Source of the DNA: a virus
Taxonomy: Duplodnaviria; Heunggongvirae; Uroviricota; Caudoviricetes
Virus record (IMG/VR): IMGVR_UViG_2639763115_000005
Length of the DNA: 2,751 bases
Strand: one strand, 5' to 3'
Part shown: positions 383 to 2,751 of the stretch, in pieces
Layout: each line of letters opens with the position of its first letter
How positions within the stretch are numbered: the stretch's first letter is position 1
Notes under the pieces: generated by a model
Told to the model about the DNA's origin: nothing
Databases searched by the model: none
Seen by the model: only the letters and a program-made list of their open reading frames with translations
Program-made: the position numbers and the translations under genes

Positions 383-487
383 TATCAGAACTGGTGTACG
401 TCCAATATCGTCACTGGATAATCTCCGTCAGGCTTCCTTACTCCGAACGATCACCGCGTCCGTCCCGCACATTCCAGCAACGCATCT

Positions 488-496: not shown

Positions 497-1546
497 GTGC
501 GAGTATTACTTCGACCTGTTCTGGTACCGGAACTCGGGCTGGTGATCGTTAAGCCGGGCCGTGAATCCATGCCGGTATTCCACAATACCCGGGTACTGGT
601 GGAGCCGGAACCGAAAAGCATGCGTAATCTGCCGTCCGGGGGCGTTCCTGCCGTTCGCCAGCCGCTGGTGGAAGACAAAACATTGCTGCCGTTTTTCAGT
701 AACGCACGGGTGATTCGTGCTGCTGGTGGTGCTGGTGCATTGTCTGACTGGCTGTTGCGCCATATTAAATCCTGCCAGTGGCCACACGGCGATTATCATC
801 ACAGCGAAACCGTCATTCACCGTTATGGTACCGGCGCAATGGTGTTGTGCTGGCACTGCGACAACCAGTTGCGTGACCAGACCTCCGAATCACTTGAGCA
901 ACTTGCTCACCAAAACTTGTCAGCATGGATGATTGACGTCATTCGTCACGCAATGAATGGCACACAGGAGCGGGAATTATCGCTGGCTGAATTATCCTGG
1001 TGGGCGGTCCGCAATCAGGTGGCGGACGCGCTACCGGAAGCGGTATTACGTCGTTCGCTGGGGTTGCGTGCGGAAAAAATCCGCTCAATGTACCGTGAAA
1101 GCGACATCGTACCGGGAGAGCAGACCGCCACCAGCATACTGAAACAGCGCACAAAAAATCTTGCGCCGCTGCCTCACGCCCACCAGCAACAGAACCCACC
1201 ACAGGAAAAGACGGTGGTCAGCATTGCCGTTGATCCTGAGTCTCCGGAATCTTTCATGAAACGACCTAAACGTCGCCGCTGGGTTAACGAGAAATACACA
1301 CGCTGGGTGAAGACACAGCCGTGTGCGTATTGTGGTAAGCCAGCCGACGATCCCCATCACCTGATTGGTCATGGTCAGGGCGGAATGGGGACAAAATCTC
1401 ACGATATTTTCACGCTACCGCTGTGTCGGGAGCATCACAACGAGCTTCATGCGGATCCTCTGGCGTTCGAAGAAAAGCATGGTTCTCAGGTTGATTTAAT
1501 TTTTCGTTTTCTTGATCACGCCTTTGCAACTGGCGTGCTTGGGTAA
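497..1546 (+). CDS. DUF968-family (YdfU-like) prophage protein, with a C-terminal HNH-like Cys/His motif; function uncharacterised
   Basis: 1050-nt ORF (349 aa) from GTG 497 to TAA 1544-1546. GTG is the only start codon in the open frame after the in-frame stop at 419-421, and it has a GGAGG SD. C-terminus reads CAYCG...DPHHL...SHD...LCREHHNELH, which resembles an HNH/His-Me finger pattern; a second cluster (CQWPHGDYHH...CWHCDN) lies at residues 93-122. Length and position (upstream of Q) match my recollection of YdfU-type DUF968 proteins. Confidence 0.8.
   Translation: MRVLLRPVLVPELGLVIVKPGRESMPVFHNTRVLVEPEPKSMRNLPSGGVPAVRQPLVEDKTLLPFFSNARVIRAAGGAGALSDWLLRHIKSCQWPHGDYHHSETVIHRYGTGAMVLCWHCDNQLRDQTSESLEQLAHQNLSAWMIDVIRHAMNGTQERELSLAELSWWAVRNQVADALPEAVLRRSLGLRAEKIRSMYRESDIVPGEQTATSILKQRTKNLAPLPHAHQQQNPPQEKTVVSIAVDPESPESFMKRPKRRRWVNEKYTRWVKTQPCAYCGKPADDPHHLIGHGQGGMGTKSHDIFTLPLCREHHNELHADPLAFEEKHGSQVDLIFRFLDHAFATGVLG
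664..671 (+). other. Chi octamer GCTGGTGG (top-strand orientation) inside the DUF968 CDS
   Basis: Exact octamer at 664-671, spanning codons for P-L-V-E. Confidence 0.6.
722..729 (+). other. Chi octamer GCTGGTGG (top-strand orientation) inside the DUF968 CDS, within a tandem near-repeat
   Basis: Exact octamer at 722-729, in the tandem 9-mer TGCTGGTGG / TGCTGGTGC (721-738) that encodes the Gly/Ala-rich stretch AAGGAGA. A 7/8 near-Chi follows at 731-738. Confidence 0.6.
1128..1135 (-). other. Chi octamer on the bottom strand (top strand reads CCACCAGC)
   Basis: CCACCAGC at 1128-1135 is the exact reverse complement of GCTGGTGG. Confidence 0.6.
1180..1187 (-). other. Chi octamer on the bottom strand (top strand reads CCACCAGC)
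   Basis: CCACCAGC at 1180-1187 is the exact reverse complement of GCTGGTGG. Confidence 0.6.
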
Positions 1547-1552: not shown

Positions 1553-1558
1553 TGAGTG

Positions 1559-1933
1559 ATGCTCATAGATTTGGTTTTACCTTACCCGCCGACGGTGAAC
1601 ACTTACTGGCGACGCCGTGGCAGCACATATTTTATCTCGGAGGAGGGAAAGCGTTATCGCCGGGCTGTGGCGCTTATTGTTCGCCAGCAGCGGCTGAAAT
1701 TAAGCCTGTCCGGAAGGCTGGCGATAAAGGTGATTGCAGAGCCACCGGATAAGCGTCGTCGCGACCTGGACAATATCCTGAAAGCACCGCTGGATGCGCT
1801 GACGCATGCGGGAGTGTTAATGGACGATGAGCAGTTTGATGAAATCAATATCGTTCGTGGTCAGCCAGTATCTGGTGGACGTCTGGGGGTGAAGATTTAC
1901 CCCATAATGCATGAAGAGCAGGTCAAAAAATGA
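1559..1933 (+). CDS. rusA: RusA-family Holliday junction resolvase (crossover junction endodeoxyribonuclease)
   Basis: ORF ending at TGA 1931-1933. The ORF track starts at GTG 1556, but ATG 1559 has better SD spacing, so I place the start there. The protein contains PDKRRRDLDNILKAPLDALTHAGVLMDDEQF, which closely matches my recollection of the E. coli RusA core (RRRRDLDNL...DALT...DD) that carries the catalytic acidic residues. Size (about 124 aa) fits the family. Confidence 0.85.
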   Translation: MLIDLVLPYPPTVNTYWRRRGSTYFISEEGKRYRRAVALIVRQQRLKLSLSGRLAIKVIAEPPDKRRRDLDNILKAPLDALTHAGVLMDDEQFDEINIVRGQPVSGGRLGVKIYPIMHEEQVKK

Positions 1934-2751
1934 AACTGGAAGATTTACCGAAATACTACTCCCCAAAATCCCCTTGCCTGACCGATGCATCGGCCTCAAC
2001 GTCAAAAGATGCGCTGAGTATCACTGATGTGATGGCCGCGCAGGGCATGACACAGAATCGGGCTGAGATGGGGTTTTCTGCGTTCCTGGGGAAAATGGGC
2101 ATCAGTATGAATGACAGGGCGCGGGCAACAGAATTACTGGCAGATTATGCACTCAGTCGGTGCGATCGTGTGGCGGCGTTGAGAAAACTTCCGGCAGAAA
2201 TAAAACCGGTAGTGATGCGCATTATGGCTTCGTACGCTTTTGAGGATTATGCCCGCAGCGCAGCGAGTAAAAAGCAGTGCCCTTGTTGCTATGGGGAAAA
2301 ATTTATTGAAAGCGTAGTTTTTACAAACAAGGTCCAGTATCCGGATGGTAAGCCGCCGGTATGGGCAAAGTGTACGAAAGGTGTGTATCCGTCTTACTGG
2401 GAAGAATGGAAAAAAGTCAGGGAGGTGGTAAAAGTTGCCTGTCCGGAGTGTGGCGGAAAGGGTGAGGTTTCCACCGCCTGTAAGGATTGCCGTGGGCGTG
2501 GTGTCGCCATTCACCGTGAAGAGTCGGTAAAACGTGGTATGCCTGTTATCAGAGACTGCCAGCGTTGTGGTGGTCGTGGCTATGAAAGACTACCATCAAC
2601 GGAGGCATTTAATGCTATATGCGAGGTGACAAACCAGATAACACGCGCGTCATGGGAAAAAACAGTTAAGAAATTCTATGATGCGCTGGTGACCCGGTTT
2701 GATATTGAAGAAGGATGGGCTGAGCGGCAGTTAAAAAAGGTAACTAGGTAA
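1930..2751 (+). CDS. Late-gene antitermination protein Q (phage 82 / QuuQ-type), with a cysteine-rich CxxCxGxG zinc-ribbon region
   Basis: 822-nt ORF (273 aa) from ATG 1930 to TAA 2749-2751. The ATG overlaps the RusA stop (ATGA at 1930-1933). N-terminal motifs (KYYSPKSP, DVMAAQGM) and the C-terminal end (YDALV...VTR) match my recollection of Q82-family antiterminators. Four Cys motifs are read directly: CPCC, CPECGGKG, CKDCRGRG, CQRCGGRG. The position after a RusA gene is typical for Q. Confidence 0.8.
   Translation: MKLEDLPKYYSPKSPCLTDASASTSKDALSITDVMAAQGMTQNRAEMGFSAFLGKMGISMNDRARATELLADYALSRCDRVAALRKLPAEIKPVVMRIMASYAFEDYARSAASKKQCPCCYGEKFIESVVFTNKVQYPDGKPPVWAKCTKGVYPSYWEEWKKVREVVKVACPECGGKGEVSTACKDCRGRGVAIHREESVKRGMPVIRDCQRCGGRGYERLPSTEAFNAICEVTNQITRASWEKTVKKFYDALVTRFDIEEGWAERQLKKVTR

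What the first reader, a model, noticed from the sequence alone, without database searches (positions are those of the whole stretch)
2278..2568. Q antiterminator carrying four Cys motifs (CPCC plus three CxxCxGxG), resembling a DnaJ-type two-zinc module
Read directly from the translation: CPCC at residues 117-120, CPECGGKG at 171-178, CKDCRGRG at 185-192 and CQRCGGRG at 210-217. Three consecutive CxxCxGxG repeats is the signature of the DnaJ cysteine-rich domain. From memory, Q82-type proteins are shorter and carry fewer such motifs, which would make this an expanded metal-binding insertion (about residues 120-180) that could change RNAP or qut recognition. That comparison is from memory and is uncertain.
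Basis: partly seen in the sequence, partly recalled or inferred. Interest (0 to 1): 0.45.

Follow-up and report, generated by a model that had tools for sequence, protein, structure and literature searches.

The report
Long-form lambda-Q antiterminator, two zinc ribbons
The four cysteine motifs are real, but the gene is an ordinary, already annotated prophage late-gene antiterminator of the phage lambda Q family, in the common long form (also seen in phage phi80) that most likely carries a second zinc-binding hairpin next to the one seen in lambda Q.

Summary

- The protein belongs to the lambda-Q family (Pfam PF03589, 181.6 bits; lambda Q structures 7UBM/7UBN/4MO1), not the Q82 family.
- Relative to lambda Q (207 aa) it has 68 extra residues (114-181) at the junction between the lambda Q "body" and its zinc-ribbon "arm". 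Motifs 3 and 4 correspond to the lambda Q zinc site; motifs 1 and 2 are extra.
- The long form is not unusual. Phi80 Q, ES18 gp73, mEp460 Q and the ydfT-type E. coli prophage Q all have four motifs, as do about 29 of 58 long family representatives. Ten have two, and several of those are lambda-like variants.
- The exact DNA occurs in RefSeq E. coli genomes, annotated "antitermination protein".

AlphaFold topology and a clean natural deletion of motif 1-hairpin-motif 2 favour two tandem zinc ribbons, not the nested DnaJ wiring. This pairing is inferred, because no model coordinates were available. Resemblance to DnaJ is weak, sub-threshold, and shared by lambda Q itself. The role of the second module is untested. 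Low interest.

The parts
1930..2751 (+). Q antiterminator gene, lambda-Q family, long form (273 aa plus stop). Its ATG overlaps the rusA stop codon as ATGA.
   Evidence: PF03589 at E 2.9e-54 and 181.6 bits. phmmer to lambda Q 7UBM_Q at E 1.8e-40. Foldseek of the AF2 model to 7UBN_Q at E 2.9e-13, TM 0.71 normalised to the target. Identical DNA in RefSeq is annotated WP_000762868.1 'antitermination protein'.
1930..2268 (+). Residues 1-113: the N-terminal segment (which forms the nozzle in lambda Q) plus the first half of the helical body.
   Evidence: Aligns to lambda Q 1-113. AF2 predicts helices 31-108, with low confidence for residues 1-25. Domain limits for lambda Q come from PMC9388147.
2269..2472 (+). 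Residues 114-181: the extra module absent from lambda Q (knuckle 1, long beta-hairpin, knuckle 2). It is predicted to be a second zinc ribbon.
   Evidence: It is the gap in the alignment to lambda Q. AF2 places strands 125-136 and 159-170 between the two knuckles, at pLDDT 74-86. The module is cleanly absent in P0164 compared with its close relative P0133.
2278..2301 (+). Knuckle 1, CPCCYGEK (C117, C120; the extra C119 is conserved only among close relatives).
2302..2439 (+). Hairpin between knuckles 1 and 2 (residues 125-170). Its length varies from 6 to 55 residues across the family, and its aromatic/proline-rich tip is shared with phi80 Q.
2440..2463 (+). Knuckle 2, CPECGGKG (C171, C174).
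   Evidence: C171, C174 and G176 are invariant in the 108-sequence alignment.
2479..2502 (+). Knuckle 3, CKDCRGRG (C184, C187). It corresponds to lambda Q C118/C121.
   Evidence: HMMER alignment to 7UBM_Q and 4MO1. Invariant in the alignments.
2557..2580 (+). Knuckle 4, CQRCGGRG (C210, C213). It corresponds to lambda Q C144/C147.
2473..2589 (+). Residues 182-220: the lambda-type zinc-ribbon arm (strand, helix, strand between knuckles 3 and 4).
   Evidence: AF2 predicts E192-194, H196-202 and E207-209, matching the B1-H3-B2 arm of lambda Q described in PMC9388147.
2590..2748 (+). Residues 221-273: the second half of the body, carrying the helix-turn-helix that reads the Q binding element in lambda Q.
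   Evidence: Aligns to lambda Q 155-207. AF2 predicts helices 223-233 and 239-272.
1556..1933 (+). rusA (Holliday junction resolvase), the upstream neighbour.
   Evidence: PF05866 at E 2.2e-17; RefSeq annotation.
497..1546 (+). DUF968 protein with an HNH-like C-terminus, a typical nin-region neighbour.
   Evidence: PF06147 at E 5.2e-76; RefSeq annotation.

Best explanation
The gene encodes the late-gene transcription antiterminator Q of a lambdoid prophage of E. coli. It belongs to the lambda-Q family.

By homology to lambda Q, it should work as follows (inferred, not tested here). It binds a Q binding element in the late promoter through a helix-turn-helix body and a zinc-ribbon arm. It docks on RNA polymerase paused at a sigma-dependent pause site. 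With NusA, its N-terminus refolds into a nozzle on the RNA-exit channel, so that the polymerase reads through terminators.

This protein is the long form of the family. Between the body (up to residue 113) and the lambda-type arm (knuckles 3 and 4: C184/C187 with C210/C213) it carries a 68-residue module. In that module, knuckle 1 (C117/C120) and knuckle 2 (C171/C174) most likely close a second Cys4 zinc site at the base of a long two-stranded beta-hairpin. The arm region would therefore be two zinc ribbons in tandem (1+2, then 3+4), not the nested DnaJ arrangement (1+4 around 2+3). The pairing is inferred from the predicted strand pattern and from evolution, not from measured distances.

The conserved part of the module is the zinc site itself. 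The hairpin varies from 6 to 55 residues across the family. The module sits exactly where lambda Q touches the zinc-binding domain of the RNA polymerase beta' subunit (lambda residues 110-112, 117 and 122-126). My best guess, which is inference only, is that it acts as a structural brace at the base of the arm and adds or reshapes a contact with RNA polymerase or promoter DNA in the loading complex.
For: Family membership:
- PF03589 scores 181.6 bits against a cut-off of 26.7, and no other Q family is hit.
- phmmer to the lambda Q structures gives E 1.8e-40, in two blocks that flank residues 114-181.
- The AF2 model (pLDDT 81.8) matches 7UBN_Q at E 2.9e-13, TM 0.71 normalised to the target.
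- PHROG 127, 'anti-termination protein Q-like', is matched over 1-273. Its profile is 253 positions long, that is, long-form.

Genomic context (outside the window, in an otherwise identical genome):
- Six bases after the Q stop lies TTGATT-16 nt-TGgTAAATT, followed by catcat-AACGATGGG. Lambda PR' has TAAATT-tgactc-AACGATGGG.
- A terminator-like hairpin follows, as annotated for phi80.

The long form is common:
- phi80 Q (269 aa), ES18 gp73 and mEp460 Q (whose gene is labelled ydfT in some E. coli genomes) all have four knuckles.
- Of the 58 representatives of at least 180 aa, 29 have four or more motifs, 11 have three (mostly truncated or with a degenerate knuckle 1) and 10 have two.
- Close E. 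coli clusters hold 3,739 and 4,648 member sequences.

Tandem pairing:
- Lambda Q residues 114-152 form a single zinc ribbon in the crystal structures (PMC9388147). Its two CxxC motifs (C118/C121 and C144/C147 in the sequence) align to knuckles 3 and 4 here.
- Spacing from knuckle 3 to 4 is constant (25/26) and from 2 to 3 is constant (12/13). Spacing from 1 to 2 varies from 14 to 63, with the indels in the middle of the segment.
- AF2 predicts two 12-residue strands (125-136 and 159-170) directly flanked by knuckles 1 and 2, and the lambda-like strand-helix-strand between knuckles 3 and 4. The full-length and arm-only models agree.
- P0164 (200 aa) is nearly identical in its flanks to P0133 (269 aa) (BLOSUM distance 0.12) but lacks exactly knuckle 1-hairpin-knuckle 2 and keeps the knuckle 3 sequence CRCNGTG.
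- Two-knuckle forms sit at three or more places in a neighbour-joining tree.
- Mutual information gives a few weak pairs within each unit (Q136-E159, S128-V169, K185-R208) and essentially none between the units.
Against: - No coordinates were returned for the models, so Cys-Cys distances and tetrahedral geometry could not be measured. The pairing rests on the secondary-structure pattern and on evolutionary argument.
- The alignment used for AF2 had only homologs of at least 54% identity, and pTM was modest (0.64 for the full protein, 0.39 for the arm alone).
- Knuckles 2 and 3 are spaced as in anti-TRAP, where two adjacent motifs share one zinc (phmmer E 0.031). A 2+3 site is therefore not excluded.
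- Zinc binding, antitermination activity and any role of the extra module are untested.
- The tree is a crude neighbour-joining tree built on about 180 columns.
Confidence: 0.75

Rival explanations
1. The four motifs form a true DnaJ-type cysteine-rich domain. Zinc site I would be made by motifs 1 and 4, and zinc site II by motifs 2 and 3, nested inside.
For: - There are four CxxCxGxG-type motifs.
- PF00684 gives E 1.9e-06 over residues 171-218, and TIGR02349 (DnaJ) gives E 1.1e-05.
- Anti-TRAP aligns over motifs 2-3.
- One homolog is even named 'chaperone protein DnaJ' by its source.
Against: - Lambda Q, with only two motifs forming one zinc ribbon, gives a similar sub-threshold PF00684 hit (23.1 bits).
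- In the Pfam alignment, knuckles 2, 3 and 4 align to DnaJ motifs 1, 2 and 3. Knuckles 3+4 therefore take the place of DnaJ zinc site II, and knuckle 2's partner lies upstream rather than downstream.
- The natural loss of knuckles 1 and 2 together, leaving 3+4, would orphan both sites under nested wiring.
- The AF2 strand pattern pairs 125-136 with 159-170.
- There is no J domain or other DnaJ C-terminal domain.
Confidence: 0.12
2. The 68-residue segment is a recent, lineage-specific insertion that gives this Q a new promoter or RNA polymerase specificity.
For: - It is absent from lambda Q and P22 gp23.
- It sits at residues that contact the beta' zinc-binding domain in lambda Q.
- The hairpin tip differs between subfamilies.
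Against: - The four-knuckle form is the commonest form across the whole family, down to about 30% identity, and is present in phi80.
- Two-knuckle forms are scattered in the tree, and one of them is a very close relative of a four-knuckle protein. This favours repeated loss.
- The late promoters after this Q and after phi80 Q have the same layout as lambda PR'.
Confidence: 0.08
3. Only the lambda-type site (knuckles 3+4) binds zinc. The cysteines of knuckles 1 and 2 are vestigial or serve another role, such as redox sensing or a disulfide.
For: - No metal data exist for any long-form Q that I could find.
- Knuckle 1 is degenerate in a few representatives: P0127 has CxxxxC and P0144 lacks the Gly.
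Against: - The C171/C174 pair is invariant and C117/C120 nearly invariant in 108 close homologs. All four are kept in almost all diverse long forms while the residues between them change freely. This is the pattern expected of metal ligands.
- The protein is cytoplasmic.
Confidence: 0.05

Closest known systems
Phage lambda Q (Q-lambda, 207 aa; PDB 4MO1, 7UBJ-7UBN; Pfam PF03589)
   Same: It is homologous over residues 1-113 and 182-273. It shares the helical body with its helix-turn-helix, the zinc-ribbon arm with two CxxCxGxG knuckles 26 residues apart, and the gene position just upstream of a PR'-type late promoter carrying the same AACGATGGG pause element.
   Different: Lambda Q lacks residues 114-181 and therefore has one zinc site instead of the two predicted here. 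Identity is about 29% over the full length and about 40% over the shared blocks.
Phage phi80 Q (gp17, 269 aa), a long-form member with an annotated Q binding site in pR'
   Same: It has the same four-knuckle architecture and the same 46-residue hairpin, with a shared YPxGKPPxW...PSxWExW tip. Its late promoter and terminator have the same layout.
   Different: Identity is 41%. Knuckle 3 is CxC rather than CxxC. The spacer sequence at the Q binding site differs.
The 250-aa ydfT-type Q of E. coli prophages and phage mEp460 Q (I take this to be the QuuQ type of the K-12 Qin prophage; that identification is from memory)
   Same: It is in the same family, has four knuckles, and lies next to a DUF968/HNH-type gene.
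   Different: Identity is about 39%, and the first hairpin is shorter (27 residues against 46).
DnaJ/Hsp40 cysteine-rich domain (Pfam PF00684) and anti-TRAP
   Different: The scores are below the family thresholds. The predicted wiring is tandem (1+2, 3+4) rather than nested (1+4, 2+3). There is no J domain and no chaperone context. Lambda Q shows a similar weak resemblance with only two knuckles.

Membership tests
Lambda-Q family of antiterminators (Pfam PF03589) | Profile match above the curated threshold | tested here: met
   181.6 bits against a cut-off of 26.7, E 2.9e-54.
Lambda-Q family of antiterminators (Pfam PF03589) | Homology to both halves of the solved lambda Q structure (body with helix-turn-helix, zinc-ribbon arm) | tested here: met
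   phmmer gives E 1.8e-40, aligning 1-113 and 182-273. Foldseek of the AF2 model to 7UBN_Q gives E 2.9e-13, TM 0.71 normalised to the target.
Lambda-Q family of antiterminators (Pfam PF03589) | Four Cys at the positions of the lambda Q arm's CxxC pairs (C118, C121, C144, C147) | tested here: met
   C184, C187, C210 and C213 align to them and are invariant.
Lambda-Q family of antiterminators (Pfam PF03589) | Gene lies directly upstream of a late promoter with a sigma-dependent pause element and a terminator | tested here: met
   The window ends at the stop codon. In an otherwise identical genome (L001) the next 100 bases hold TTGATT-16-TGgTAAATT, then AACGATGGG as in lambda PR', then a terminator-like hairpin.
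Lambda-Q family of antiterminators (Pfam PF03589) | Q-dependent antitermination activity | not testable with these tools
   This needs a reporter or an in vitro transcription assay.
Q82 family (Pfam PF06323, by the assignment in PMC7171158) | Profile match to the family model | tested here: not met
   No hit at E <= 0.1; only PF03589 and PF00684 were returned. The family-to-Pfam assignment was read.
DnaJ cysteine-rich domain (Pfam PF00684) | Four CxxCxGxG repeats | tested here: met
   Motifs lie at 117, 171, 184 and 210. Motif 1 ends in K here and in G in most homologs.
DnaJ cysteine-rich domain (Pfam PF00684) | Profile match above the curated threshold | tested here: not met
   28.4 bits against 32.7 for PF00684, and 25 bits against 377 for TIGR02349. 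Lambda Q scores 23.1 bits.
DnaJ cysteine-rich domain (Pfam PF00684) | Nested zinc sites (motifs 1+4 and 2+3) | tested here: inconclusive
DnaJ cysteine-rich domain (Pfam PF00684) | Embedded in a J-domain co-chaperone | tested here: not met
   No J domain or DnaJ C-terminal domain was found.

The most novel reading that the evidence does not exclude
Lambda Q, the only member of its family with solved structures, would be a reduced outlier. Most of the family, including this protein and phi80 Q, carries a second zinc ribbon with a long, subfamily-specific hairpin, placed exactly at the lambda Q surface that contacts the RNA polymerase beta' zinc-binding domain. That second arm would make a distinct contact with RNA polymerase, sigma region 4, NusA or promoter DNA, so that loading of long-form Q proteins would differ in geometry from the published lambda Q complexes.
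Probability: 0.3. Interest if true: 0.45.

Novelty: already known. Interest (0 to 1): 0.17.

Why it matters
It matters little as a discovery. The protein is identical to an annotated RefSeq antitermination protein found in many E. coli genomes, and its architecture is that of phi80 Q.

The useful points are corrective:
- The family is lambda Q, not Q82.
- The extra segment is a family-wide module, not a peculiarity of this gene.
- The DnaJ likeness is a motif-level resemblance, and it has already caused at least one probable mis-annotation as "DnaJ".

One modest open point remains. No long-form member has a solved structure, and I found no paper describing the second zinc site. The structural model for the family therefore rests on its minority short form.

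Tried and rejected
- **Internal duplication of the arm.** The local alignment of residues 114-181 against 182-222 scores 38, against 21.7 +/- 4.3 for shuffles (0.5% of shuffles reach it). The match is carried by the Cys/Gly motif and the strand before it, so it is suggestive at most.
- **Mutual information with APC** on 137 long-form sequences (effective number about 49). The result is dominated by gaps and shared ancestry in the hairpin tip, and gives only a few weak within-unit pairs.
- **Net charge of the first hairpin** across the family ranges from -1 to +4 (mean +1.5). This gives no clear sign of a nucleic-acid-binding surface.
- **Reading Cys-Cys distances from the AF2 models.** This was not possible, because the model files are not exposed.
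- **Literature.** Guo & Roberts 2004 (PMC415771), Vorobiev 2014 (PMC3951671) and the phi80 genome paper (PMC3510586) are not held. Searches for CXXCXGXG with antitermination, and for QuuQ/ydfT, found nothing relevant. One search was badly chosen and returned noise.
- **Antisense ORF 2134-2514 (-)** has no Pfam match.
- **Rfam** found nothing in the window.

Full report
**What is in the window.**
- The 2751-base window carries three co-oriented genes of a lambdoid prophage nin/late-control region:
  - a DUF968 protein (497-1546);
  - RusA (1556-1933);
  - a 273-aa ORF (1930-2751) whose ATG overlaps the rusA stop.
- The whole window is 100% identical to many RefSeq E. coli chromosomes, where the third gene is WP_000762868.1, "antitermination protein".

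**Check of the observation.**
- The translation contains CPCCYGEK (residues 117-124), CPECGGKG (171-178), CKDCRGRG (184-191) and CQRCGGRG (210-217).
The nucleotide span 2278-2568 runs exactly from the first to the last of the eight Cys.
- CPCC is a CxxC followed by xG, and in most homologs it reads C[DP]CCxGxG. All four motifs are therefore of the same type.
- Four CxxC arise in 0.1% of shuffles of this protein. The Cys are also kept in relatives down to about 35% identity. The feature is real.

**Which Q family.**
- Pfam gives PF03589 (Antiterm) at 181.6 bits and nothing for the other Q families.
- PMC7171158 assigns PF03589 to the lambda Q family, PF06530 to Q21 and PF06323 to Q82.
- phmmer against solved structures finds lambda Q (7UBM, 4MO1, 7UBJ) at E 1.8e-40, in two blocks. 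Residues 1-113 align to lambda 1-113 and residues 182-273 to lambda 116-207.
- So this is a lambda Q relative, not a Q82 relative, with 68 extra residues (114-181).

**Where the extra residues sit.**
- In lambda Q the body is residues 61-113 plus 153-207, and the arm is a zinc ribbon at 114-152.
- The arm reads positions 11-13 of the Q binding element, and its tip touches sigma region 4.
- Residues 110-112, 117 and 122-126 touch the beta' zinc-binding domain (PMC9388147).
- The extra module therefore sits exactly at the body-arm junction.
- Knuckles 3 and 4 align to the two CxxC motifs of the lambda Q arm (C118/C121 and C144/C147 in the lambda sequence).

**How common the long form is.**
- phi80 Q (269 aa, 41% identical), ES18 gp73 (254 aa) and mEp460 Q (250 aa; its gene is labelled ydfT in some E. 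coli genomes) all have four knuckles. Lambda Q and P22 gp23 have two.
- A search of 1.84 billion cluster representatives found only 236 relatives. Of the 58 that are at least 180 aa long:
  - 29 have four or more motifs;
  - 11 have three, mostly truncated or with a degenerate first knuckle;
  - 10 have two, several of them lambda Q variants.
- The PHROG profile for the family is itself 253 positions long.
- Close E. coli clusters hold thousands of member sequences.
- The "insertion" is thus the usual state of the family.
- On a crude neighbour-joining tree of the shared regions, two-knuckle proteins fall in at least three places.
- P0164 (200 aa) has flanks nearly identical to P0133 (269 aa) (BLOSUM distance 0.12). 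It lacks exactly knuckle 1-hairpin-knuckle 2 and keeps the knuckle 3 sequence CRCNGTG. This favours repeated loss of a self-contained module.

**How the zinc sites are wired.** Several lines of evidence favour tandem sites (1+2 and 3+4).
- Lambda Q forms a single zinc ribbon from the two knuckles that align to 3 and 4 here.
- Spacing is constant between knuckles 2-3 (12/13) and 3-4 (25/26). It varies from 14 to 63 between knuckles 1-2, with the indels in the middle of that segment. This is what a hairpin closed at its base would show.
- AlphaFold2 with a 108-sequence alignment (pLDDT 81.8) predicts two 12-residue strands, 125-136 and 159-170, directly flanked by knuckles 1 and 2. Between knuckles 3 and 4 it predicts the lambda-like strand-helix-strand. 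An arm-only run gives the same pattern.
- Mutual information adds only weak support.
- I could not read coordinates, so the geometry of the Cys4 sites is inferred, not measured.

**The DnaJ resemblance.**
- PF00684 scores 28.4 bits, below its 32.7 cut-off, aligning knuckles 2-3-4 to DnaJ motifs 1-2-3.
- Lambda Q scores 23.1 bits with its two knuckles aligned to DnaJ motifs 2-3.
- There is therefore a consistent but weak, family-wide likeness to DnaJ-type zinc knuckles.
- In DnaJ the first motif pairs with a fourth motif downstream (from my own knowledge of the DnaJ structure). Here knuckle 2 most likely pairs with knuckle 1 upstream, so the wiring is tandem rather than nested.
- One homolog is named "chaperone protein DnaJ" by its source, probably because of these motifs.

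**How it most likely works.**
- The mechanism is taken from lambda Q by homology, and the context supports it.
- In an otherwise identical genome, six bases after the stop codon lies TTGATT-16 nt-TGgTAAATT-catcat-AACGATGGG. This is the same arrangement as lambda PR' (TAAATT-tgactc-AACGATGGG).
- A terminator-like hairpin follows, as annotated for phi80.
- The role of the second zinc module is not shown.
  - Across the family the conserved part is the zinc site. The hairpin ranges from 6 to 55 residues and carries no consistent charge.
  - The tip is well kept between this protein and phi80 Q.
  - Given its position at the beta' zinc-binding-domain contact, I favour a structural brace at the base of the arm, with a subfamily-specific extra contact in the loading complex. 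This is inference.

**Verdict.**
- The protein and its architecture are already known and annotated.
- The only open point is that no long-form member has been characterised structurally.
- Interest is low.

Noticed in passing
window 406-407: Most E. coli genomes carry 825 more bases at this point, holding hokD and the start of a small hypothetical ORF. The window's junction is found contiguous at 100% identity in one listed genome (NZ_AP027764.1), and only 9 genomes cover at least 80% of the junction probe. The window therefore comes from a natural deletion variant.
   Followed up: partly
window 1930-1933: The rusA stop and the Q start overlap as ATGA, which suggests translational coupling of the two genes.
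   Followed up: no
window 497-1546: The DUF968 protein has a weak HNH-nuclease-like match (PF16784, 22.2 bits) at its Cys/His-rich C-terminus. The neighbouring gene in phage mEp460 is annotated as an HNH endonuclease.
   Followed up: no
L001 9584-9680 (just beyond the window's 3' end): A PR'-like promoter (TTGATT-16-TGgTAAATT) is followed by the same AACGATGGG pause element as lambda PR', then a terminator-like hairpin about 45 nt downstream, then tRNA-Ile and tRNA-Arg genes.
   Followed up: partly
protein P0032 (Serratia quinivorans homolog): This Q homolog is named 'chaperone protein DnaJ' by its source. It is probably a mis-annotation caused by the CxxCxGxG motifs.
   Followed up: no
protein P0034 (Logan assembly): It differs from the E. 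coli Q cluster P0003 by systematic S>F, P>L/F, T>I/M, A>V, R>C/W and H>Y changes. That is the pattern expected from C-to-T conversion of the coding strand, for example an assembly of bisulfite-type reads.
   Followed up: no
knuckle 3 in L002 (phi80), L005 (ES18) and about half of the diverse representatives: The third motif is CxCxGxG rather than CxxCxGxG, an unusual one-residue spacing for a zinc knuckle. The spacing to knuckle 4 shifts from 26 to 25 with it.
   Followed up: no
proteins P0126, P0141, P0156: These are minimal long forms with only 6 residues between knuckles 1 and 2. They show that the conserved element is the second Cys4 site, not the hairpin.
   Followed up: partly
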